DNA of 9,088 nucleotides from a virus (Duplodnaviria > Heunggongvirae > Uroviricota > Caudoviricetes): the IMG/VR virus record IMGVR_UViG_2684622669_000014. One strand, 5' to 3'. Positions 1-8,286 of this stretch are shown in pieces. Below the pieces are notes generated by a model. The model ran no database searches. It had not been told where the DNA came from and saw only the letters and a list, made by a program, of their open reading frames with translations. The position numbers and the translations under genes were made by a program. Every line of letters begins with the position of its first letter. The stretch's first letter is position 1.

Positions 1-74
1 AGGCATGTGGTGAGGCGTTTCTGGCGCAGGTTCGCCTGCAGGCGGAAAAGCTGGTCAGGGAGATGGCGGCATGA
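1..74 (+). CDS. 3' end of an unidentified upstream nin-region gene (5'-truncated by the window edge)
   Basis: Frame 3 is open from the window start and ends at TGA 72-74 (C-terminus ...LQAEKLVREMAA), forming an ATGA start/stop overlap with the next gene at 71. Too short to identify; not in the ORF track because it has no start in the window. Confidence 0.4.
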   Translation, partial: ACGEAFLAQVRLQAEKLVREMAA

Positions 75-397
75 CGACGTTAACTCAATGCCAGCAGCAG
101 GTGCTGGATATGCTGATTTCTTATCAGAAAGAGCGTGGCTTCCCGCCAACCAATCAGGAGGTGGCAACCATGCTGGGATACCGTTCGGTGAATGCAGCGG
201 TGGAGCATCTTCGCGCACTGGAGAAAAAAGGCGTCATCACGATAAAGCGTGGTGTGGCCCGGGGGATCACGCTTCATACCGCGGTGAAGGACGACGACAG
301 CGAGGCGGTCGGGATTATCCGCTCACTGCTTGCCGGTGAGGAAAACGCAAGGCTGCGTGCAACTCACTGGTTACATGAGAGAGGCCTGAAAGTATGA
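71..397 (+). CDS. LexA-like winged-helix DNA-binding domain protein lacking the S24 peptidase domain (108 aa)
   Basis: ORF 71..397 with SD AGGGAG 57-62. The N-terminal ~70 aa resemble the LexA N-terminal DNA-binding domain as I recall it (LexA ...[55 protein letters not shown]... vs here LTQCQQQVLDMLISYQKERGFPPTNQEVATMLGYRSVNAAVEHLRALEKKGVITI). Stop overlaps the rusA start (ATGA). Confidence 0.75.
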   Translation: MTTLTQCQQQVLDMLISYQKERGFPPTNQEVATMLGYRSVNAAVEHLRALEKKGVITIKRGVARGITLHTAVKDDDSEAVGIIRSLLAGEENARLRATHWLHERGLKV

Positions 398-783
398 AGC
401 TGATCCTGCCTTTCCCGCCCAGCGTGAACACCTACTGGCGACACCCCAACAAAGGGGCATTTGCTGGTAAGAGCCTGATAAGCGCGGCGGGGCGAAAATT
501 TCAGAGCGCGGCGTGCGCAGCAATAGTTGAGCAGTTACGTCGTCTGCCAAAACCAACGTCGGCACCTGCTTCAGTGGAGATCGTGTTGTTTCCTCCGGAT
601 AACCGGATCCGCGATCTGGACAACTATAACAAGGCGCTGTTTGACGCCCTGACCCACGCGGGTGTGTGGGAAGACGACAGACAGGTGAAAAGAATGCTGG
701 TGGAGTGGGGACCGGTTATCCCGAAAGGGAAGGTCGAGATCACTATCAGTAAGTATGAGAAACCGGCGGGTGCAGCCGCCTGA
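394..783 (+). CDS. rusA: RusA-family Holliday junction resolvase (crossover junction endodeoxyribonuclease)
   Basis: 129-aa ORF with RusA signatures (LPFPPSVNTYWR, DLDN, FDALTHAGVWEDDRQV). Translationally coupled to the upstream gene via ATGA overlap; typical nin-region position upstream of Q. Confidence 0.9.
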   Translation: MKLILPFPPSVNTYWRHPNKGAFAGKSLISAAGRKFQSAACAAIVEQLRRLPKPTSAPASVEIVLFPPDNRIRDLDNYNKALFDALTHAGVWEDDRQVKRMLVEWGPVIPKGKVEITISKYEKPAGAAA

Positions 784-802
784 TTAAGAGGAGAAACGAA
801 GT

Positions 803-1612
803 ATGAATAATCTGATGGTTATTGATGGTATTGAAGTTCGTCGTGATGCTTATGGGCGTTACAGCCTGAACGATCTGCACAGGGCAGCCGGGGGAGAACA
901 AAAAAACCGCCCGAAATACTGGCTCTCCAATAAGCAAACCTGTGAATTGATTGAACAACTTTTCACCGAGGGTGGAATTCCGCCTCTGGAACAAAATCAA
1001 CCAGTTAGCGTCATTAATGGCGGAAATAACCAGGGGACGTATGTCTGCAAAGAACTGGTGTATGCCTATGCAATGTGGATCAGCCCGTCATTCCATCTGA
1101 AGGTGATCCGTACTTTCGATATGGTAACCAGCGCACCGGAAAAATTATCCGGGCAGGCTGCTGACAAGATGCAGGCTGGAGTGATTCTGCTGGACTTTAT
1201 GCGCAGGGAGTTAAACCTGTCTAACTCTTCAGTGCTTGGTGCCTGTCAGAAACTCCAGGAGGCTGTTGGCTTACCGAATCTGGCACCGCGCTATGCCATT
1301 GATGCTCCTGCTGATGCACACGATGGCTCAAGTCGCCCGACACTGTCACTGAGTGCACTGCTGAAACAGTATGGTATACGCCTGACGGCTAATCAGGCAT
1401 ATCACCAGATGGTGAAACTGGGGATCGTCGAGCAGCGCGAACGATACAGCCGTACCGCGATTAACAACATCAAAAAATTCTGGTCGCTGACAGCGAAAGG
1501 TTGCATGTTCGGCAAGAACATCACCAGTCCCGCAAATCCGCGCGAGACGCAGCCGCATTTCTTCGAATCCCGATTCCCTGAGCTGTTAAAGCTGCTCGAT
1601 ACCGTTCATTGA
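803..1612 (+). CDS. KilA-N domain protein (phage antirepressor/Roi-like DNA-binding protein)
   Basis: 269-aa ORF with strong SD (AAGAGGAG) 8-15 nt upstream. N-terminal ~100 aa match the KilA-N fold signature (VIDGIEVRRDAYGRYSLNDLHRAAGG...KYWLSNKQTCELIEQL...GTYVCKELVYAYAMWISPSFHLKVIRTF). Confidence 0.85.
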   Translation: MNNLMVIDGIEVRRDAYGRYSLNDLHRAAGGEQKNRPKYWLSNKQTCELIEQLFTEGGIPPLEQNQPVSVINGGNNQGTYVCKELVYAYAMWISPSFHLKVIRTFDMVTSAPEKLSGQAADKMQAGVILLDFMRRELNLSNSSVLGACQKLQEAVGLPNLAPRYAIDAPADAHDGSSRPTLSLSALLKQYGIRLTANQAYHQMVKLGIVEQRERYSRTAINNIKKFWSLTAKGCMFGKNITSPANPRETQPHFFESRFPELLKLLDTVH

Positions 1613-1613
1613 G

Positions 1614-1955
1614 GTGACCGTGAGAGCACTACTGACCCCTGAAATTGCCCCGCGTATGGGGATCGTATTGTTCAGGCCAGGTTCAGAGCTGATGCCCCTG
1701 TTTATGCAGGGGCGTGTCCTGCTGGAGCCTGAGCCGGAACGTTATTCATCTTTTGCCAGTGGTGCCGTTCCGGCTGCATCACAACCGCTGGCGGATGATC
1801 CTGCCGTTCGGGCCGTGTTCCGCAATGAGGCAGTGATCCGTCGTGCTGGTGGCGTGGAATGTCTTGAAAGCTGGTTACTTCGTGAAAAAGGCTGCCAGTG
1901 GCCTCATTCCGACTGGCACAGCGAGAACATGACCACAATGCGAAGCAACGGATAA
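1614..1955 (+). CDS. Hypothetical phage protein; possibly the N-terminal part of a YdfU/DUF968-like gene that continues in another frame
   Basis: 113-aa ORF starting with GTG immediately after the KilA-N stop. No recognisable motif. The downstream frame-1 ORF is open from 1933 and overlaps this ORF's 3' end, suggesting one gene interrupted by a frameshift. Confidence 0.5.
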   Translation: MTVRALLTPEIAPRMGIVLFRPGSELMPLFMQGRVLLEPEPERYSSFASGAVPAASQPLADDPAVRAVFRNEAVIRRAGGVECLESWLLREKGCQWPHSDWHSENMTTMRSNG

Positions 1956-1968
1956 CTGTGCCCGCTGG

Positions 1969-2529
1969 GTGTTGTCTGTTGTGCGTCGGGATCTCGGTTT
2001 TGATGACAGTCACGTTGTGACAATGCCGGAACTATGCTGGTGGCTGATTCGTAATGATCTGGCGGATGCCTTACCGGAAAGTGCAGCCCGTAAGGCACTG
2101 AGATTACCGAAGCCTTTTGTGCCGTCTGTCACCCGGGAAAGTGACCTAGTGCCTTCGGTTCCTGCCACCAGCATCATCCAGAATAAAGCGAAAAAGGTGC
2201 TGGCGCTGAAAGTGGATCCGGAGTCGCCGGACTCTTTTATGTTACGCCCAAAACGTCGCCGCTGGGTTAATGAAAAGTACACGCGATGGGTTAAGACGCA
2301 GCCGTGCGCATGTTGTGGAAAACCTGCTGATGATCCCCACCACCTGATAGGCCACGGTCAGGGTGGAATGGGGACAAAAGCGCATGACCTCTTTGTGTTG
2401 CCTTTGTGCAGAAAGCATCACGACGAGCTGCATGCGGATACTGTGGCATTCGAAGAGAAGTATGGCTCCCAGCTGGAGCTGATATTTCGTTTTATCGATC
2501 GTGCGCTGGCGATTGGTGTGCTGGCCTGA
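1969..2529 (+). CDS. YdfU/DUF968-like prophage protein with Cys/His cluster (putative zinc-binding, HNH-like)
   Basis: 186-aa ORF containing [14 protein letters not shown] ... CRKHHDELH. Sits immediately upstream of Q, as the DUF968 gene ydfU does beside the Q homolog in the K-12 Qin prophage (from memory). Start is uncertain: GTG 1969 or ATG 2027, both without a clear SD. Confidence 0.6.
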
Positions 2530-2546
2530 TTTTGTGGAGAAAGTTG

Positions 2547-2924
2547 ATGCGTGATATTCAGATGGTTCTTGAGCGTTGGGGAGCGTGGGCGGCTAATAAT
2601 CATGAAGATGTGACTTGGTCGTCCATTGCCGCCGGTTTTAAGGGATTAATTCCTTCAAAAGTAAAATCTCGCCCACAATGTTGTGACGATGACGCGATGA
2701 TCATTTGCGGGTGCATGGCCCGTCTGAAAAAGAACAACAGCGATTTGCATGATTTATTGGTGGACTATTATGTCGGCGGCATGACTTTTATGGCGCTTGC
2801 ACGTAAGCATGGGCGATCTGATTGTTGGGTTGGCAGGATGCTCCAGAAAGCTGAGGGCGTAGTGGAGGGTATGCTGATGGTGTTGGATCTCCGATTGGAG
2901 ATGGATGCTGATTGTTCGAAATAA
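2547..2924 (+). CDS. Q: Late-gene antiterminator Q (phage 21/QuuD-type)
   Basis: ORF track gives 2406..2924, but the protein from the internal ATG 2547 ([34 protein letters not shown]...[16 protein letters not shown]...) matches the DLP12 QuuD-type Q antiterminator as I recall it, has an SD GGAG at 2536-2539, and avoids overlapping the upstream gene. Confidence 0.9.
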
Positions 2925-2936
2925 TTAAAGGAAAAG

Positions 2937-2965
2937 TTGCTGTCTGATTGTCATTAGTCTAACAT
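2937..2965 (+). promoter_or_regulatory. Candidate late promoter pR' (-35 TTGCTG, 17-nt spacer, -10 TAACAT); a Q-utilisation (qut) site is expected within or just downstream
   Basis: TTGCTG at 2937-2942 and TAACAT at 2960-2965, just after the Q stop. A start near 2972 with termination at tR' near 3051 would give a short ~80-nt leader as in lambdoid late operons. Hexamers are non-consensus; assignment is by position. Confidence 0.35.
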
Positions 2966-3022
2966 TTTAAATGTTGGAATCGCAACGTAGTTATTATCAT
3001 ATAACAGCTTGTTTCCTGATTT

Positions 3023-3051
3023 AGCCAGCCTCCCCAAAGGCTGGTTTTTTT
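3023..3051 (+). terminator. Rho-independent terminator, candidate tR' (target of Q antitermination)
   Basis: GC-rich hairpin CCAGCC(3025-3030)-loop TCCCCAAA-GGCTGG(3039-3044) followed by T-run 3045-3051. The minus-strand reading has no U-tail, so it is + oriented. Confidence 0.7.
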
Positions 3052-3079
3052 CTAATAAGTATTATTTCGGGTAGGGATT

Positions 3080-3604
3080 TTATTGTTTAACCCATAATAA
3101 TTCATTGACATTGAATCCCAACTTTTGAGCGGTTCGCACATAGTCTGCTTTTACTTTATCTGGAATAGTTGGGGTCCTTGCCAGAATCCATAGGTATTCT
3201 CTGTTCGGACCACTGACAAGAGCATACTTATACTCATCATCCAGTTTGATTACATTATAGCCACCATAGAAGGGGCCAAAAAACGAAACCTTCAACGCTG
3301 CAGTTTTAGTATCTCCAGTAAAGTATGCTTTACCTTCGCTCTCGCTCCATTTATTTTTCGTTGGATCGTATCCACGGTTAAGTACACGAATCCCTCCGTC
3401 GTTCCGTTTTCCATAAGTAGCGCTGACCTGTTCCAGACTACGTTCGAACCGGTTCTCGAGGCGAGCTATTTCATACCATTTTCCGAGGTAGCGGTTGGCG
3501 TCAAAATTTGTAATCGGCTGCACACCTTTAGGTGGTGTCGGGGCCTTACATGCTATAAGAGTGAAAGAGAGTGCAATGCCAGTCAACACAGGCCATAACT
3601 TCAT
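3080..3604 (-). CDS. Bacterial lipocalin (Blc-like) outer-membrane lipoprotein
   Basis: 174-aa ORF with a lipoprotein signal peptide and lipobox (LIAC) and lipocalin motifs close to E. coli Blc as I recall it (NFDANRYLGKWYEIARLENRFER, GKAYFTGDTKTAALKVSFFGPFYGGYNVI, YLWILARTP). Convergent with late transcription from pR'. Confidence 0.9.
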   Translation of the reverse strand: MKLWPVLTGIALSFTLIACKAPTPPKGVQPITNFDANRYLGKWYEIARLENRFERSLEQVSATYGKRNDGGIRVLNRGYDPTKNKWSESEGKAYFTGDTKTAALKVSFFGPFYGGYNVIKLDDEYKYALVSGPNREYLWILARTPTIPDKVKADYVRTAQKLGFNVNELLWVKQ

Positions 3605-3796
3605 AATAAATCCTGTACTTTTGATAGTTGAGAGTAAGTATGAAAGATAGATGATTACGACCGATCACTTAAAGAACTTTCATACTATATTAGGAATAGT
3701 CCATAACAGAAAAATTGTCAGTGATGACGCCAGAAAGGCAATTTATTCCGTGCACTACACAGTTTATGTGTTAATGAATTAGTCAAGGGGGAGGAT

Positions 3797-4756
3797 ATGA
3801 TAAAAAAACCTGTGATTGGAATTAGCGGTTGTTTGGCCGGTTCTGCTGTTCGTTTTGATGGTGGTCACAAAAGAGCTGACTTTTTAATGGACAAATTAGT
3901 GGAATGGGTAACATTCAGACCAGTATGTCCGGAAATGGCTATAGGGCTGCCAGTTCCGCGTCCTGCTCTACGTCTTGTGCGCTCGACGCAAGGAAATATA
4001 CGGATGTGTTTCAGCCACGACCAGAATGAGGATGTGACAGAGAGAATGACAGAGTTTAGTCGTTCTTATATGGACAAATTAAAGGATGTATCGGGGTTTG
4101 TGGTTTGTGCTAAATCTCCCAGCTGTGGCATGGAGCGCGTGCGTGTCTATGATGAAAATGGTAATCGAGGTCGTAAAGATGGAGTGGGACTATTTACGAG
4201 CACTTTGATGGAAAAGTTTTCCTGGCTACCGGTTGAAGAGGATGGGCGATTACATGATCCAGTGCTTCGTGAGAATTTTGTTGAAAGAGTTTTTGCTTTG
4301 CATGAGCTCAATCACCTTTACAAGGAGAAATTATCAAGAAGAGAGTTATTAGCTTTTCATAGTCGTTATAAGCTTCAGTTGTTGGCGCATAGTCAGGCAG
4401 GCTATAAAGATATGGGACCATTTGTGGCTGCAATACACGAGTGGGCGGACCTTGAATCATACTTTGAGGTGTATCGTGATAAGCTGATGGCGATTCTCAG
4501 AAAACCTGCATCACGTAAAAATCACACGAATGTGCTGATGCATATACAGGGGTATTTTAGTAACTACTTAAGTACACGCCAGCGTAAAGAGTTGAGCGAG
4601 GTTATACTTAACTATCGTTCTGGCACATTACCTCTTCTTGCGCCGTTGACTCTGCTGAAGCATTATCTGGGTGAGTATCCTAATGACTACTTGCTTACAC
4701 AGAATTACTTCGATCCCTATCCGGACGAACTGGCTCTAAGACTGATGGTAAATTAA
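3797..4756 (+). CDS. DUF523-DUF1722 fusion protein (TudS-like Fe-S thiouracil-desulfidase domain plus YbgA-like C-terminal domain)
   Basis: 319-aa ORF with strong SD GGGGGAGG 6 nt upstream. N-terminal domain carries the conserved cysteines expected of DUF523/TudS [4Fe-4S] proteins (GISGCLAG, PVCPE, CAKSPSCG); C-terminal half resembles DUF1722/YbgA. Mid-range GC, unlike the phage backbone. Confidence 0.85.
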   Translation: MIKKPVIGISGCLAGSAVRFDGGHKRADFLMDKLVEWVTFRPVCPEMAIGLPVPRPALRLVRSTQGNIRMCFSHDQNEDVTERMTEFSRSYMDKLKDVSGFVVCAKSPSCGMERVRVYDENGNRGRKDGVGLFTSTLMEKFSWLPVEEDGRLHDPVLRENFVERVFALHELNHLYKEKLSRRELLAFHSRYKLQLLAHSQAGYKDMGPFVAAIHEWADLESYFEVYRDKLMAILRKPASRKNHTNVLMHIQGYFSNYLSTRQRKELSEVILNYRSGTLPLLAPLTLLKHYLGEYPNDYLLTQNYFDPYPDELALRLMVN

Positions 4757-5107
4757 TTGTATGCGATATCATCCAAAAGGATGAGTTCCTGCATGCAGGA
4801 TATTTACAATCGTAAAAACTACACTATGATACCCAGAGTGTCAGTTTGTATAAAAACTCTGTTTACGCTGAAGAAACCATTGAGATGCAACTTAAAGTTG
4901 GTAAACATGCCAGTCAAAATATATAATATTATGATTCCACGCAGCTATATATAATATAACAGATTGGTTTAATAATTTGCCTTTGTGAGTTAAATACATA
5001 ATTTTATACTTGTGATGCAATGAGATTTTCCTTATTGTTGAACTGGCGAATATTGATTTTCCACCTATACTTACCTGGTGTAACCCCAATGATATCAGGT
5101 GGATAAT

Positions 5108-5839
5108 ATGCCATACATATGTTCTATCATTTTGGTGTTGAACTCGTTTGATGTCCGAATTGGTAAAGAAGATATTTTGTTTAAAAAAGGAAGTGCTGTT
5201 CTCATTGATTACAATTTAAAAGATTTTTTTTCATCAAATATAGATCATGTAATGATCGTAGATATTGAAGAGAAAACAGTTAATGATTTCTTTAAAAGCA
5301 ATACACTCTCACCTTTTTCTGTAAGAAGGTTTTATCCGGCATACTTGATGGTGGAGTGTGAAGATTTTTCATTGTTAAAGAATTTGATTGCATGCTTGAA
5401 TTGTGATGGCAGAACTGTGGATTTTGTTAGAAATCAAATATCACTTGCATGTCTTGCTATCTTATCTTCAGAGAAAATAGTGCAAAGTTTTTTATTTGGA
5501 TGTCTTAATAGTTTAGGAAGTAAAGTTAAGGCTATTATTCACACGGATATATCTGCAGCATGGAGACTTTGTGATATATCTTCAAGACTGTATTTGAGTG
5601 AAAGTCTGTTAAAAAGAAAATTAAAGCACGAAGGCTTATCATTTAGTAAGTTAATTCTTGAAGAGCGAATGGTGATGGCGGAAAGGTTATTAAGCTACAA
5701 TTTATATTCTGTTGGAAAAGTTGCTGAGATATGCGGTTATGAAAACACGTCATATTTTGTAAGTGTTTTCAGAAGATATTTTGGTGTTCCTCCCCATCAA
5801 TATTCATCAAGATTTTTTTTAGAAAAAGACATGATGTAA
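5108..5839 (+). CDS. AraC/XylS-family transcriptional regulator (Rns/GadX-like, AT-rich)
   Basis: C-terminal ~100 aa show the AraC double-HTH signature (LSFSKLILEERMVMAERLL...SVGKVAEICGYENTSYFVSVFRRYFGVPPHQY). ORF track starts at GTG 5099; I prefer ATG 5108 with SD AGGTGG at 5097-5102. Strongly AT-rich by eye, with a ~350-bp AT-rich upstream region. Confidence 0.8.
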   Translation: MPYICSIILVLNSFDVRIGKEDILFKKGSAVLIDYNLKDFFSSNIDHVMIVDIEEKTVNDFFKSNTLSPFSVRRFYPAYLMVECEDFSLLKNLIACLNCDGRTVDFVRNQISLACLAILSSEKIVQSFLFGCLNSLGSKVKAIIHTDISAAWRLCDISSRLYLSESLLKRKLKHEGLSFSKLILEERMVMAERLLSYNLYSVGKVAEICGYENTSYFVSVFRRYFGVPPHQYSSRFFLEKDMM

Positions 5840-6027
5840 CGTGATGCGTTTTAATGATTTTGTAATTTTTGTATTTGATAAATGTATGATGCTTTCAGCT
5901 ACGCCAGAATAATCGCTGGTGTTTTTCTTTTTGAATAGATGTTCAAGCCTTACGCTAATGTAACTTCTATACCTTTCCTCTTCGTTCCGAACCGTGTACA
6001 CCATCCGTTATTTGCGGAGGTGAGGCT

Positions 6028-6243
6028 ATGAAATCCATGGATAAGTTAACAACGGGCATTGCCTACGGCACCTCCGCAGGCAGTGCTGGCTACTGGTTTT
6101 TACAGCTGCTCGATAAAGTCACGCCCTCACAGTGGGCAGCAATAGGTGTGCTGGGTAGCTTGGTATTTGGCCTGCTGACGTACCTGACAAACCTTTATTT
6201 CAAGATTAAAGAAGATAAACGCAAGGCTGCGAGAGGTGAATAA
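6028..6243 (+). CDS. S: Phage-21-type pinholin (class II holin) with dual-start motif
   Basis: 71-aa ORF matching S21 pinholin as I recall it ([56 protein letters not shown]). SD GGAGG 6016-6020. Two in-frame starts (M1-K-S-M4: ATG 6028 and ATG 6037) consistent with antiholin/holin dual start. Stop overlaps the endolysin start. Confidence 0.9.
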
Positions 6244-6740: not shown

Positions 6741-7201
6741 ACAGAGTAACCGCGATTATCTCCGCTCTGGTTATCTGCATCATCGTCTGCCTGTCATGGG
6801 CTGTTAATCATTACCGTGATAACGCCATTACCTACAAAGCCCAGCGCGACAAAAATGCCAGAGAACTGAAGCTGGCGAACGCGGCAATTACTGACATGCA
6901 GATGCGTCAGCGTGATGTTGCTGCGCTCGATGCAAAATACACGAAGGAGTTAGCTGATGCGAAAGCTGAAAATGATGCTCTGCGTGATGATGTTGCCGCT
7001 GGTCGTCGTCGGTTGCACATCAAAGCAGTCTGTCAGTCAGTGCGTGAAGCCACCACCGCCTCCGGCGTGGATAATGCAGCCTCCCCCCGACTGGCAGACA
7101 CCGCTGAACGGGATTATTTCATCCTCAGAGAACGGCTGATGACAATGCAGAAGCAACTGGAAGGAGCACAGGAATATATCCGTACCCAGTGTATACCGTG
7201 A
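6737..7201 (+). CDS. Rz: Rz inner-membrane spanin (i-spanin), lambda-type
   Basis: ORF track starts at 6725, but ATG 6737 ([21 protein letters not shown]...) gives the canonical Rz N-terminal TM segment and an ATGA overlap with the endolysin stop. Coiled-coil-rich periplasmic domain; near-identical to lambda Rz as recalled. Confidence 0.88.
6957..7139 (+). CDS. Rz1: Rz1 outer-membrane lipoprotein spanin (o-spanin), embedded in the +1 frame of Rz
   Basis: 60-aa ORF wholly inside Rz, SD AAGGAG 6944-6949. Lipoprotein signal with lipobox LVVVGC and proline-rich mature part ([15 protein letters not shown]), as in lambda Rz1. Confidence 0.82.
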
Positions 7202-7666
7202 TGTTTTGTTATGAAGGTGTTACTGGTAACGTTAAGGTAATTTAACAAAAAGTCAGTTCCGGACTTTATAGTGTGCTCAGATCATGGCCAAAAACGATTT
7301 CTGTGATAAATATTTTGAATATTATTTACAGATAAATGAAGTTGTTCGCATGGATGGAAATATTACAATAGAGTATGAAGTATATGTCCGTATTGTATGG
7401 GCAGAGAAGGCAAAAACACGGTAATTCCTTGTGTTGCCATTATACCTGATTGGCAGAATAGTTGTTTGGTTTTGAGTATATAGTCAGCGTTTTTTGTTCA
7501 GTAATAGCTCTCTCAAAAAATAATAAAATAAGGTGATTATTTGGGTTTATTATTTGGTTTTTTTTGTGTGTTGTTTTGTTGTTTTTCTGTGATTTATTTT
7601 TTATTGTTATTTCATTAAAGGAAGGTAAATTCAGGATAGCAGTCTGTAGATAATCGGAGGTCACTT

Positions 7667-7981
7667 ATGCTACATGATCACCTGGCAGAATGTCTGGAGA
7701 AAAAAGGACTGTACCGGAGAGCAGCTGAACGATGGGCAAAAGTGATGGTACAGCTAAGTGATGACCAGAAAAGAAAAGTGGCGGCACAGAAACGAGCAGA
7801 GTGTTTGCGTAAGGCGCGCCGGACTCCGGTTTCACCGGTGAACCTGACAGAAATAAAACAAGCGGTCAACAGACTACATTCTGAGTTGGGAATGGGATTT
7901 GAAGAGCGGCGGGTATTCCGACGATATAAAGGGACAGGAGAACAGAATACGTCCGGAAACGCGCGGTCAAAAAAATGCTAA
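7667..7981 (+). CDS. PerC-family-like small transcriptional activator (Pch/PerC homolog candidate)
   Basis: 104-aa basic ORF with SD GGAGG 7656-7660. N-terminal LEKKGLYRRAAERWAKVM resembles the PerC/Pch signature as I remember it (..LE.KGLWRRAA..W..V). Preceded by a long AT/T-rich tract. Confidence 0.55.
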   Translation: MLHDHLAECLEKKGLYRRAAERWAKVMVQLSDDQKRKVAAQKRAECLRKARRTPVSPVNLTEIKQAVNRLHSELGMGFEERRVFRRYKGTGEQNTSGNARSKKC

Positions 7982-8017
7982 AAAATATCTGAGAGAGTTA
8001 TTGCCTGTTACCATAAT

Positions 8018-8047
8018 AAAAAGCGACTTTAGTGGTCGCTTTTGTGT
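8018..8047. terminator. Candidate bidirectional intrinsic terminator between the convergent PerC-like and YlcI-like genes
   Basis: Hairpin AAAAGCGAC (8019-8027) - loop TTTAGTG - GTCGCTTTT (8035-8043), flanked by an A-run upstream and T-rich tail downstream, so either strand reads stem plus U-tract. Confidence 0.45.
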
Positions 8048-8061
8048 CATATATAAGTTAT

Positions 8062-8286
8062 TTAAGTAAACCTGTCTGAACAGGTGCTCTGGTCGTGTTT
8101 GTCTTTGTTGGGTAAAAATTGAGAATATTTTTCATTAATTAATCTTCTTCTGCAGGCTTCAATAACCCACGCTGAAAAATTCCCTGAACCTTTCTGGTCA
8201 AGAGCAATATTAATTTGTTCAATCATCTGGTTTGGAAATCGGATGTTGCGGGTTGTTGTTCTTCGGGTTCTGTTCTTCGATGACAT
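8062..8286 (-). CDS. YlcI/DUF3950-like small prophage protein (putative ribbon-helix-helix type)
   Basis: 74-aa ORF on the minus strand; NIRFPNQMIEQINIALDQKGSGNFSAWVIEACRRRL matches what I recall of DLP12 YlcI, which also sits immediately upstream of the Nu1 homolog. Confidence 0.7.
   Translation of the reverse strand: MSSKNRTRRTTTRNIRFPNQMIEQINIALDQKGSGNFSAWVIEACRRRLINEKYSQFLPNKDKHDQSTCSDRFT

What the first reader, a model, noticed from the sequence alone, without database searches (positions are those of the whole stretch)
3080..3604. Blc-like lipocalin lipoprotein encoded antisense to phage late transcription
A near full-length bacterial lipocalin with an intact lipobox sits on the minus strand right after tR', so Q-antiterminated late transcription would run antisense across it. 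This suggests expression in the lysogen and shut-off on induction. Phage-borne outer-membrane lipoproteins (Bor, Cor) commonly mediate serum resistance or superinfection exclusion, and a lipocalin could analogously alter envelope lipid handling.
Basis: partly seen in the sequence, partly recalled or inferred. Interest (0 to 1): 0.55.

Follow-up and report, generated by a model that had tools for sequence, protein, structure and literature searches.

The report
Phage-carried Blc-type lipocalin cargo gene
This is a real, intact outer-membrane lipocalin gene carried as accessory cargo by lambda-like E. coli phages; it is already annotated and described, sits backwards in the same slot that holds Shiga toxin genes in other phages, and is common (about one E. 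coli genome in five) rather than novel.

Summary
Window 3080-3604 (minus strand) encodes an intact 174-aa lipoprotein of the Blc lipocalin subfamily. It lies 28 nt beyond a canonical plus-strand terminator that follows the Q antiterminator gene, so late transcription would cross it antisense.

It is already known. RefSeq names it "lipocalin family protein", phage records name it "Lipocalin Blc", and Mathieu et al. 2020 list phage blc as a moron in over half of infant-gut lambda-like coliphages. The gene is in 1135 of 5426 complete E. coli genomes. In every locus examined the layout is Q(+), lipocalin(-), YbgA(+), AraC(+), holin(+). It is under purifying selection (dN/dS about 0.07-0.10). A one-residue variant has been detected as protein.

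What this work adds: the gene is not a copy of E. coli blc (63% identity). It belongs to a second enterobacterial lineage that sits next to a MerR-type regulator and a YbgA gene, and the phage captured the lipocalin and YbgA genes together. The ligand pocket matches Blc at 18 of 19 contact residues.

Lysogen expression has one supporting dataset. Shut-off on induction and any Bor/Cor-like role remain untested. Interest is low.

The parts
2547..2924 (+). Q antiterminator gene (125 aa, QuuD / Stx-phage Q type)
   Evidence: Pfam PF06530 E=6e-51. RefSeq start as in L001. 81-84% aa identity to the Q of Stx1/Stx2 phages. Only distantly related to the solved Q21.
2925..3022 (+). Late promoter (pR') / Q-loading region; exact -35/-10 not resolved
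   Evidence: About 97% conserved across five backbones. Homologous to the annotated late promoter region of the Stx2 II phage over window 2920-3051.
3023..3052 (+). tR'-like intrinsic terminator, effective on the plus strand only
   Evidence: 9-bp stem plus U7, dG -14.9 kcal/mol, z -3.6. Invariant. On the minus strand the hairpin is followed by CUAAAUCAGG with no U tract.
3080..3604 (-). Lipocalin lipoprotein gene (174 aa, Blc subfamily, second enterobacterial lineage)
   Evidence: dN/dS 0.07-0.10. Intact in 80 of 80 viral contigs.
3548..3604 (-). Signal peptide and lipobox (codons 1-19; LIAC, Cys19; +2 Lys)
   Evidence: Rule-based lipobox test met. 119 of 120 homologs also positive. The +2 residue is never Asp.
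3611..3614 (-). Shine-Dalgarno AGGA, 6 nt before the ATG
   Evidence: Read from the sequence. Conserved in all alleles and in chromosomal relatives.
3678..3692 (-). Conserved upstream block TAATATAGTATGAAA with a -10-like TATAGT (3689->3684): candidate core promoter or operator of the divergent lipocalin/YbgA control region
   Evidence: Matches 11 of 15 positions of CAATATACTACGAAT, which is invariant at -83 to -90 in MerR-linked chromosomal loci. The phage block is at -88. 89 of 20000 register-restricted shuffles reach this score, but 500 of 5000 do when any position is allowed. Suggestive only.
3605..3796 (.). Divergent intergenic control region between the lipocalin and YbgA genes
   Evidence: About 97% conserved among backbones, while synonymous divergence of the flanking genes is 0.18-0.30.
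3797..4756 (+). YbgA-family gene (DUF523 / 2-thiouracil desulfurase plus DUF1722), co-captured with the lipocalin
   Evidence: Pfam. 70-73% aa identity to the YbgA genes that neighbour lineage-2 chromosomal lipocalins.
5108..5839 (+). AraC/XylS regulator (YdeO/GadX/PatE-like), very low GC
   Evidence: Pfam HTH_18. NCBIfam best hit YdeO, below cutoff. 54% identity to Sakai Sp1 ECs_0287. GC about 0.31.
5901..5930 (+). Second plus-strand intrinsic terminator, at the end of the cargo
2907..6016 (.). Exchangeable unit (end of Q, pR'/tR', three-gene cargo), replaced by an OmpD porin gene in the same-backbone phage PhiR29_1
   Evidence: Homology to PhiR29_1 breaks at 2906 and resumes at 6017. Annotation. 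GC falls from about 0.55 to 0.30-0.47.
6028..6243 (+). Phage-21-type holin S, first late lysis gene
   Evidence: Pfam PF04971 E=2e-35.

Best explanation
The gene is a lysogenic-conversion (moron) gene of lambdoid coliphages. It encodes a Blc-subfamily lipocalin. The protein is inferred to be exported by Sec, lipidated at Cys19, and sorted by Lol to the periplasmic face of the outer membrane, because the +2 residue is Lys and not Asp. Its ligand pocket is essentially that of E. coli Blc, so it most likely binds the same class of hydrophobic ligands (lysophospholipids and fatty acids, possibly tetrapyrroles). The inferred benefit to the lysogen is better envelope lipid handling under envelope or stationary-phase stress. 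It is transcribed from its own promoter in the 192-nt region it shares divergently with the YbgA gene, independently of the phage late promoter. Because it points against late transcription, Q-modified RNA polymerase reading through tR' would collide with its transcription during lytic growth. The same arrangement is seen for nmpC/ompD in this slot and for bor further downstream. Shown: identity, fold, lipobox, pocket conservation, layout, purifying selection, wide distribution, and presence of the protein in a prophage-carrying strain. Inferred: localisation, ligand, promoter, benefit to the host, and interference on induction. In evolutionary terms the lipocalin and the neighbouring YbgA gene were captured together from a chromosomal locus of another enterobacterium (YbgA - [transthyretin-like] - MerR/MlrA-like regulator <> lipocalin). 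The regulator gene is absent from the phage.
For: Identity and fold. Lipobox. Pocket: 18 of 19 heme-contact residues listed for Blc (PMC8177097) are identical, against 79 of 136 elsewhere; P about 5e-4 to 1e-3. Selection: dN/dS 0.07-0.10 between the most diverged alleles, similar to Q and the holin; 80 of 80 viral contigs intact, with 28 synonymous and 21 nonsynonymous segregating sites. Distribution: 1135 of 5426 complete E. coli genomes carry the gene, and 990 carry at least 80% of the 3.2-kb module. It occurs on isolated phages (IdasGreatGrand, Lambda_2E9, 1H12). Constant layout in DLP12-like, lambda-like, Qin-like and other backbones. Dispensability: same-backbone phage PhiR29_1 carries OmpD instead; DLP12 has nmpC there and Stx2 II has stx2AB. 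Foreign base composition. Protein detected, rising 2-3 fold with envelope-stress proteins after meropenem, with no peptides shared with chromosomal Blc. Prior description as a phage moron: PMC6969025. Origin: context classification, DNA homology of both genes to L009, and a tree in which 299 of 300 bootstraps exclude all classical blc sequences from the clade joining phage and MerR-context sequences. Blc background (stress induction, nanomolar lysophosphatidylethanolamine binding, micromolar heme binding): PMC8177097. Effect of chromosomal Blc on gut lysophospholipids: PMC7026729.
Against: No promoter on the lipocalin strand reaches the sigma-70 consensus threshold in 3605-3796, and the conserved -10-like block is only suggestive. 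No transcript data were found for the lysogenic or induced state. The physiological function of Blc itself is unsettled (lysophospholipid versus heme or tetrapyrrole; dimer versus monomer), so the ligand assignment inherits that uncertainty. This window's allele has Ser56 where 115 of 116 homologs with the RFER motif have Gly. That residue lies between pocket residues 54 and 57, so this copy could be impaired. PHROGs lists the family (phrog_2809) as function unknown.
Confidence: 0.7

Rival explanations
1. The lipocalin does not act alone. It is one half of a two-gene stress module with the adjacent YbgA-family protein. The module was lifted from a MerR/MlrA-type-regulated chromosomal locus and may respond to light, oxidative or lipid damage. 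In E. coli it may be controlled by a host MerR paralog through the retained 15-nt upstream block.
For: The two genes co-occur divergently in Enterobacter, Leclercia, Buttiauxella, Raoultella and Huaxiibacter, with a MerR/MlrA-like gene between them. In Cedecea the same regulator plus lipocalin flank SnoaL, SDR, amine-oxidase, DUF1365 and CFA-synthase genes. Both genes stay together in every phage locus examined where flanks were available. The upstream block is retained at the same distance from the ATG. From own knowledge: E. coli ybgA lies in an operon with the photolyase gene phr, and DUF523/TudS enzymes act on thiouracil and 4-thiouridine.
Against: Co-capture may only reflect physical adjacency in the donor. 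No functional link between lipocalins and YbgA has been shown. The block match is weak if position is not restricted (500 of 5000 shuffles). BL21 keeps the lipocalin although its YbgA gene is truncated.
Confidence: 0.2
2. The protein is a surface-modifying factor like Bor/Iss or Cor/Llp. It would give serum resistance or block adsorption or DNA entry of superinfecting phages.
For: It is an outer-membrane lipoprotein encoded antisense in a lambdoid late region, as bor is. The same slot holds a porin gene in related phages. Mathieu et al. note that membrane proteins predominate among lambda morons.
Against: There is no sequence or fold relationship to Bor, Cor or Llp. No PADLOC defence model matches. 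Many carriers already encode Bor/Iss next to the lysis genes. The conserved internal ligand pocket argues for small-molecule binding rather than receptor masking.
Confidence: 0.06
3. The main role is regulatory for the phage. Lipocalin transcription lacks its own terminator and reads antisense through pR' and Q, damping Q expression and stabilising lysogeny, much like the lambda paQ antisense RNA. The protein would be secondary.
For: On the minus strand the tR' hairpin has no U tract, so no intrinsic terminator separates the lipocalin stop codon from pR'/Q. pR'/tR' and the cargo move together as one exchange unit.
Against: Strong purifying selection on the protein sequence and on its pocket is not explained by this reading. 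Rho could terminate the untranslated 3' region. Alternative cargos (stx, which runs in the sense direction) work with a related Q.
Confidence: 0.07
4. The gene is a neutral hitch-hiker or decaying gene with no function in E. coli.
For: This window's copy carries the unusual G56S change. The neighbouring ydfU-like gene of this prophage appears disrupted.
Against: dN/dS is 0.07-0.10. 80 of 80 viral contigs and 1042 of 1135 genome copies are at least 80% complete. The protein has been detected.
Confidence: 0.03

Closest known systems
E. coli Blc (outer-membrane lipocalin, b4149; PDB 1QWD, 2ACO, 3MBT)
   Same: Same NCBIfam subfamily, same length class, gap-free alignment, 63% identity in the mature part, same fold (TM 0.84-0.94), lipobox at the same position, and 18 of 19 ligand-contact residues identical.
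   Different: It is not the ortholog. Classical blc lies between frdD/ampC and gdx/ecnB, whereas the phage gene belongs to a separate lineage linked to MerR/MlrA-like and YbgA genes. It is phage-borne, lacks Blc's known genomic context, and its regulation is unknown.
Phage 'blc' moron of infant-gut lambda-like coliphages (Mathieu et al. 2020, PMC6969025; e.g. Lambda_2E9, 1H12)
   Same: It is the same gene family in the same Q-to-holin slot with the same neighbours. Those records annotate 'Lipocalin Blc'. The allele there is 95% identical at DNA level.
   Different: None of substance; this window is another allele on another mosaic backbone. The paper does not discuss orientation, origin or the linked YbgA and AraC genes.
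nmpC / ompD porin gene of DLP12 and PhiR29-type phages
   Same: It occupies the same slot between Q and the holin S, on the strand opposite to late transcription, and encodes an outer-membrane protein as dispensable cargo.
   Different: It is a beta-barrel porin, not a lipoprotein lipocalin. It is a single gene rather than a three-gene block.
bor / iss of lambda and DLP12-like prophages
   Same: A small outer-membrane lipoprotein moron, encoded antisense to the late operon and expressed in lysogens (own knowledge: Barondess and Beckwith). It is present on many of the same prophages.
   Different: Unrelated sequence and fold. It lies downstream of Rz. Serum resistance is documented for Bor/Iss and not for the lipocalin.
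stx genes of Stx-converting phages
   Same: They sit in the same cargo slot, directly after a homologous pR'-tR' region controlled by a Q protein 81-84% identical to this one.
   Different: stx runs in the sense direction and depends on Q read-through. The lipocalin is antisense and cannot be expressed from pR'.

Membership tests
Lipocalin / calycin fold (Blc subfamily) | Eight-stranded antiparallel beta-barrel followed by a C-terminal alpha-helix | tested here: met
   The AlphaFold model has strands 41-49, 58-66, 72-80, 85-95, 103-107, 114-121, 127-131 and 138-142, and a helix at 149-161. Foldseek gives TM 0.84-0.94 and rmsd 1.3-1.6 A to 1QWD, 2ACO and 3MBT.
Lipocalin / calycin fold (Blc subfamily) | Conserved sequence motifs: GxW in strand A (G41-K42-W43), the D-x-x-Y-x-x-ALV block (D122...Y125...A128-L129-V130), and a conserved Arg after strand H (R143) | tested here: met
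   All are invariant or nearly invariant columns in the 38-sequence alignments. Motif names come from own knowledge of lipocalin SCR1-3.
Lipocalin / calycin fold (Blc subfamily) | Score above the curated family thresholds | tested here: met
   Pfam PF08212 148.6 bits against 24. NCBIfam NF007786 314.5 bits against 267.
Lipocalin / calycin fold (Blc subfamily) | Orthology with E. coli blc (shared frd/ampC-blc-gdx-ecn neighbourhood and clade) | tested here: not met
   The phage alleles fall with MerR/YbgA-context sequences. In 299 of 300 bootstraps the clade joining them excludes all classical blc sequences.
Lipocalin / calycin fold (Blc subfamily) | Binding of a hydrophobic ligand in the calyx | not testable with these tools
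   Indirect only: 18 of 19 Blc ligand-contact residues are identical.
Bacterial lipoprotein (Lgt/LspA/Lnt substrate, Lol-sorted to the outer membrane) | Positively charged n-region, hydrophobic h-region, and lipobox [LVI][ASTVI][GAS]C with the Cys at position 15-35 | tested here: met
   MK / LWPVLTGIALSFT / LIAC, Cys19. 119 of 120 homologs also pass the rule.
Bacterial lipoprotein (Lgt/LspA/Lnt substrate, Lol-sorted to the outer membrane) | No Asp at +2 (the inner-membrane retention signal) | tested here: met
   +2 is Lys. Among homologs it is K, Q, R, S or N, never D.
Bacterial lipoprotein (Lgt/LspA/Lnt substrate, Lol-sorted to the outer membrane) | Actual acylation, globomycin-sensitive cleavage and outer-membrane localisation | not testable with these tools
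   Known experimentally for E. coli Blc (Bishop 1995, cited). The proteomics paper lists 'outer membrane' as a predicted localisation.
Phage moron (lysogenic-conversion cargo) | Lies inside a (pro)phage genome between conserved modules | tested here: met
   It lies between Q and the holin in all loci examined, including isolated phages.
Phage moron (lysogenic-conversion cargo) | Dispensable for the phage life cycle | tested here: met
   Same-backbone phage PhiR29_1 and DLP12 carry a porin gene instead, and Stx phages carry stx.
Phage moron (lysogenic-conversion cargo) | Base composition different from the neighbouring phage genes | tested here: met
   GC is 0.30-0.47 across 2850-6000 and 0.52-0.58 upstream.
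Phage moron (lysogenic-conversion cargo) | Own promoter and terminator allowing expression from the repressed prophage | tested here: inconclusive
   There is no consensus sigma-70 promoter on the minus strand. A conserved -10-like block is suggestive. No intrinsic terminator on the minus strand. Protein detection implies a promoter exists.
Phage moron (lysogenic-conversion cargo) | Confers a benefit on the lysogen | not testable with these tools
   Purifying selection and 21% prevalence are consistent with a benefit but do not prove one.
Bor/Iss or Cor/Llp-type exclusion or serum-resistance lipoproteins | Sequence or fold homology to Bor, Cor or Llp, or a match to a defence-system model | tested here: not met
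   All Pfam, NCBIfam and PDB matches are lipocalins. PADLOC gives none.

The most novel reading that the evidence does not exclude
The lipocalin-YbgA pair is a functional stress module lifted from a MerR/MlrA-type-regulated locus of other Enterobacterales. On entering E. coli, which lacks that locus, it comes under a host MerR paralog (MlrA/BluR) or RpoS through the retained upstream block. This would give about 20% of E. coli strains a second Blc-like activity, tunable by envelope stress, that alters lysophospholipid handling, a trait already linked to gut barrier effects for chromosomal Blc. In addition, its unterminated transcript may run antisense into pR'/Q and modulate the lysis switch.
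Probability: 0.15. Interest if true: 0.45.

Novelty: already known. Interest (0 to 1): 0.2.

Why it matters
As a finding it is ordinary: the gene is annotated in over a thousand genomes and has been named as a common lambda moron. It has modest practical relevance. About one complete E. coli genome in five carries a second, phage-borne Blc-type lipocalin that is easily mistaken for chromosomal blc. The 2026 proteomics paper labels it simply 'Blc'. Studies of blc alleles, lysophospholipid homeostasis or envelope-stress proteomes should distinguish the two. The origin result is a small but clean example of how moron blocks form: lipocalin and YbgA were co-captured from a MerR-linked locus, and the whole block, including pR'/tR', is swapped between Q and the holin as alternative cargo to porin or stx genes.

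Tried and rejected
- Literature on 'lipocalin + prophage' mostly returned host lipocalin-2 or unrelated prophage genes. None of it reported expression of this gene. The papers that did bear on it came from two other searches: the moron description and the proteomics detection from the accession search.
- The supplementary tables of the proteomics paper are not held, so peptide counts could not be checked. I showed instead that the two lipocalins share no tryptic peptides.
- Fixing pR' failed. The consensus scan gives only weak sites. The -35/-10 annotated in the Stx2 II phage are 14 nt apart and do not map to convincing hexamers. The Stx pR' paper gives no coordinates for this Q type. The Q21 QBE cannot be transferred because this Q is only distantly related to Q21.
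- The Rfam scan gave only a sub-threshold hit on the terminator hairpin, which I rejected as meaningless.
- The PADLOC defence models gave no hit.
- The PatE paper is not held, so I compared the cassette's AraC protein with the Sakai Sp1 regulator instead.
- The first two tree attempts failed. One timed out. The other gave a degenerate comb because a 3-aa pseudogene translation produced NaN distances. I discarded that result and replaced it.
- The alignment with the K-12 DLP12 quuD-nmpC spacer was uninformative.
Full report

Yes. The minus strand carries an ORF from the ATG at 3604 to the stop at 3080-3082, encoding 174 aa (sequence).

- Pfam Lipocalin_2 matches residues 35-174 at E=1.6e-43.
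- The NCBIfam model for 'outer membrane lipoprotein Blc' scores 314.5 bits against a cutoff of 267.
- E. coli Blc crystal structures align without a gap over the whole mature protein at E about 1e-67.
- Identity to K-12 Blc in the mature part is 97 of 155 (63%).
- An AlphaFold model (mean pLDDT 80.6; only the signal peptide is below 50) has eight strands and a C-terminal helix. It superposes on 1QWD, 2ACO and 3MBT at TM 0.84-0.94 and rmsd 1.3-1.6 A.
- The N-terminus MK-LWPVLTGIALSFT-LIAC-K passes a PROSITE-type lipoprotein rule, with Cys19 and Lys at +2. So do 119 of 120 homologs, none of which has Asp at +2.

SignalP and LipoP could not be run.

**2. The surroundings**

Upstream on the plus strand are RusA, a KilA-N protein, a DUF968/YdfU-like gene and a Q antiterminator that ends at 2924.

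A 9-bp GC-rich hairpin followed by U7 lies at 3023-3052 (dG -14.9 kcal/mol, z = -3.6). The stretch from the end of Q to the T-run of this hairpin (window about 2920-3051) is homologous to the region annotated as late promoter plus terminator in the Stx2 II phage, and the homology stops at the T-run. That phage's Q is 81% identical to this one. The hairpin is invariant in five different prophage backbones. Calling it tR' is therefore justified.

The lipocalin stop codon lies 28 nt beyond it, on the other strand.

Downstream come:
- a YbgA-family gene (DUF523 plus DUF1722; 3797-4756, plus strand);
- an AraC-family regulator (5108-5839, plus strand);
- a second plus-strand terminator (5901-5922);
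- a phage-21-type holin, lysozyme and Rz/Rz1.

GC falls from about 0.55 to 0.30-0.47 across 2850-6000. I could not fix the exact -35/-10 of pR'.

**3. How common and how constant is it?**

- The 3.2-kb module is at least 80% present in 990 of 5426 complete E. coli genomes.
- The lipocalin gene alone is in 1135 genomes (21%), with alleles 95-100% identical. BL21 is among them.
- It sits in DLP12-like, lambda-like and Qin-like prophages and in isolated phages such as IdasGreatGrand, Lambda_2E9 and 1H12. The order is always Q(+), lipocalin(-), YbgA(+), AraC(+), holin(+).
- In 80 IMG/VR viral contigs the gene is intact in all 80, and the layout is the same wherever flanks exist.
- Phage PhiR29_1 shares this window's backbone but carries an OmpD porin gene, also on the minus strand, in the same slot. 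Homology breaks at 2906 and resumes at 6017.
- K-12 DLP12 has nmpC there, also on the minus strand. Stx phages have stx in the sense orientation.

The exchangeable unit therefore includes the last codons of Q, pR'/tR' and the cargo.

**4. Is it functional?**

Between the most diverged alleles there are 19-20 synonymous and 5-6 nonsynonymous differences. That gives dN/dS of 0.07-0.10, comparable to Q (0.03-0.10) and the holin (0.03-0.09). Among the distinct viral-contig alleles plus the window there are 28 synonymous and 21 nonsynonymous segregating sites.

The 19 residues within 4 A of heme in the Blc co-crystal (PMC8177097) are identical at 18 positions; the exception is K77R. Identity elsewhere is 79 of 136, giving P about 5e-4 to 1e-3.

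The RefSeq protein WP_000780581.1 differs from the window protein only at residue 56. It was quantified in E. coli CCUG 70745 and rose 2.0- and 3.0-fold after 15 min of meropenem, together with Spy, MliC, YgdI/R, YcfJ and PspC (PMC13459554). The mature phage protein and K-12 Blc share no tryptic peptide, so that identification is specific. This is the only direct expression evidence I found.

**5. Promoter and terminator of the gene itself**

No site on the minus strand of 3605-3796 reaches the sigma-70 consensus threshold. The intergenic region is about 97% conserved among backbones, whereas synonymous divergence of the flanking genes is 0.18-0.30.

Aligning it with the upstream regions of the closest chromosomal relatives shows one shared block. 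CAATATACTACGAAT is invariant in five genera at -83 to -90. The phage has TAATATAGTATGAAA at -88 (window 3692->3678), which contains a 5-of-6 match to the -10 consensus (TATAGT). Shuffles reach this score in the same register in 89 of 20000 trials, but in 500 of 5000 trials if any position is allowed. I treat it as a candidate core promoter or operator, no more.

On the minus strand the tR' hairpin is followed by CUAAAUCAGG, with no U tract. The lipocalin mRNA therefore has no recognisable intrinsic terminator and could extend antisense into pR'/Q. This is untested.

**6. Where did it come from?**

The nearest non-phage relatives are 74-82% identical and come from Enterobacter, Leclercia, Cedecea, Buttiauxella, Kosakonia and others. 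That is closer than E. coli Blc.

Classifying neighbourhoods with marker proteins gives two lineages:

| Lineage | Neighbourhood | Identity to K-12 Blc | Identity to phage protein |
|---|---|---|---|
| Classical blc | between frdD/(ampC) and gdx/ecnB | 78-82% in the closest relatives (Citrobacter, Salmonella, Buttiauxella); 62-72% in more distant genera | 57-61% |
| Second lineage | divergent from a MerR/MlrA-like gene, followed by a transthyretin-like gene (in most) and a 319-aa YbgA-family gene | 65-67% | 74-80% |

The YbgA genes of the second lineage are themselves 70-73% identical to the phage YbgA. Buttiauxella izardii has one lipocalin of each lineage.

A metagenomic example (L009) matches the window at DNA level in both genes, in the same divergent orientation. 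In Cedecea the regulator plus lipocalin flank SnoaL, SDR, amine-oxidase, DUF1365 and CFA-synthase genes.

In a neighbour-joining tree:
- the phage alleles form a 100% clade nested among the MerR-context sequences;
- the clade joining them excludes every classical blc in 299 of 300 bootstraps;
- the phage's sister group is purely MerR-context in 229 of 300.

So the phage captured the lipocalin and YbgA genes together from such a locus. The regulator and the transthyretin-like gene are absent from the phage. The very AT-rich AraC gene probably has a separate origin (inference from GC).

**7. Mechanism proposed**

Shown: the protein's family, fold, lipobox and pocket; its position and orientation; selection; prevalence; and the existence of the protein in cells.

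Inferred from established lipoprotein biology and from work on Blc (stress-induced expression and nanomolar lysophosphatidylethanolamine binding, summarised; heme binding; gut lysophospholipid effects of chromosomal Blc):
- Sec export, Lgt/LspA/Lnt processing at Cys19, and Lol sorting to the inner leaflet of the outer membrane;
- capture of lysophospholipid-like ligands;
- a contribution to envelope homeostasis in the lysogen.

Expression must come from its own promoter, because pR' points the other way. During lytic growth, convergent Q-modified transcription would be expected to interfere with it. That is geometry and analogy with bor and nmpC, not data.

**8. Comparison with what is known, and novelty**

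The gene is already annotated ('lipocalin family protein' in RefSeq; 'Lipocalin Blc' in phage records). Mathieu et al. [quoted passage not shown] PHROGs holds the family as phrog_2809, function unknown. No defence-system model matches.

An outer-membrane protein gene lying antisense in the late region is a familiar lambdoid design (bor, nmpC/ompD). I therefore rate it 'already known' with low interest. The additions here are:
- it is a paralog lineage, not a copy of E. coli blc;
- it was co-captured with YbgA;
- its ligand pocket is essentially that of Blc;
- pR'/tR' travels with the cargo.

**9. Caveats**

- This window's allele has Ser56, where 115 of 116 homologs with the RFER motif have Gly. 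In the phage population the position is Gly in 74 contigs, Asp in 6 and Ser in none. Residue 56 lies between pocket residues 54 and 57, so this copy may behave differently.
- The ydfU-like gene of this prophage appears disrupted, so the carrier may be a decaying prophage.
- Blc's own physiological role is still debated.

Noticed in passing
window 5108-5839 (+): A very AT-rich (GC about 0.31) AraC/XylS regulator closes the cargo block. It is 54% identical over its full length to Sakai Sp1 ECs_0287, the only AraC-type regulator of the prophage where PatE (z0321, OI-8) maps. Its best NCBIfam hit is YdeO, below cutoff. It may act on acid-resistance or LEE-type targets as PatE and PsrA/B do.
   Followed up: partly
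window 7667-7981 (+): A PerC/Pch-family transcriptional activator (Pfam PF06069, E=5e-44) lies in a second swapped segment (7180-8151), which replaces the bor gene found at this position in PhiR29_1 and DLP12.
   Followed up: partly
window 3797-4756 (+): The YbgA-family protein fuses a DUF523 (2-thiouracil desulfurase-like) domain to DUF1722. It is under purifying selection (dN/dS about 0.10) and always accompanies the lipocalin. Its function as phage cargo is unknown.
   Followed up: partly
window 3437-3439 (codon 56 of the lipocalin, minus strand): Ser56 replaces a Gly that is near-invariant in the family (115 of 116 homologs with the RFER motif). Six of 80 viral contigs have Asp at the same position, so it is a recurrently changing site next to pocket residues 54 and 57.
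   Followed up: partly
window 1614-1955 and 1969-2529 (+): The YdfU/DUF968 gene is split into two ORFs in different frames. Relative to PhiR29_1 there is an approximately 81-nt deletion plus a 1-nt offset near 1944, which suggests this prophage copy is decaying.
   Followed up: partly
window 71-397 (+): A 108-aa protein consists essentially of a LexA DNA-binding domain (Pfam E=3e-19) without the LexA cleavage/dimerisation domain.
   Followed up: no
L011 (JARKOR010000135.1, 2.1 kb): A contig binned as 'Candidatus Nanosynbacter' carries a 99%-identical lipocalin and a 100%-identical Q. This is almost certainly misbinned E. coli phage DNA.
   Followed up: no
L012-L021, L009, L010 (about 85-90 nt upstream of the lipocalin ATG): The 15-nt element CAATATACTACGAAT is invariant across five genera in the MerR-lipocalin intergenic region, while its flanks vary. 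It is a likely operator or promoter core of an uncharacterised MerR/MlrA-like regulon.
   Followed up: partly
L010 (Cedecea), 1-4900: The lineage-2 lipocalin and its MerR-like regulator flank SnoaL, SDR, FAD amine-oxidase, DUF1365 and cyclopropane-fatty-acid-synthase-like genes. This cluster type hints at a link with modified or damaged membrane lipids.
   Followed up: no
L032 (Candidatus Symbiopectobacterium), about 6001: The lipocalin homolog has an early stop (translation of 3 aa), consistent with pseudogenisation in a symbiont genome.
   Followed up: no
window 3000-3079 (-): The tR' hairpin is unidirectional, so the lipocalin transcript has no intrinsic terminator before it enters pR'/Q antisense. 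This resembles the lambda paQ antisense arrangement.
   Followed up: partly
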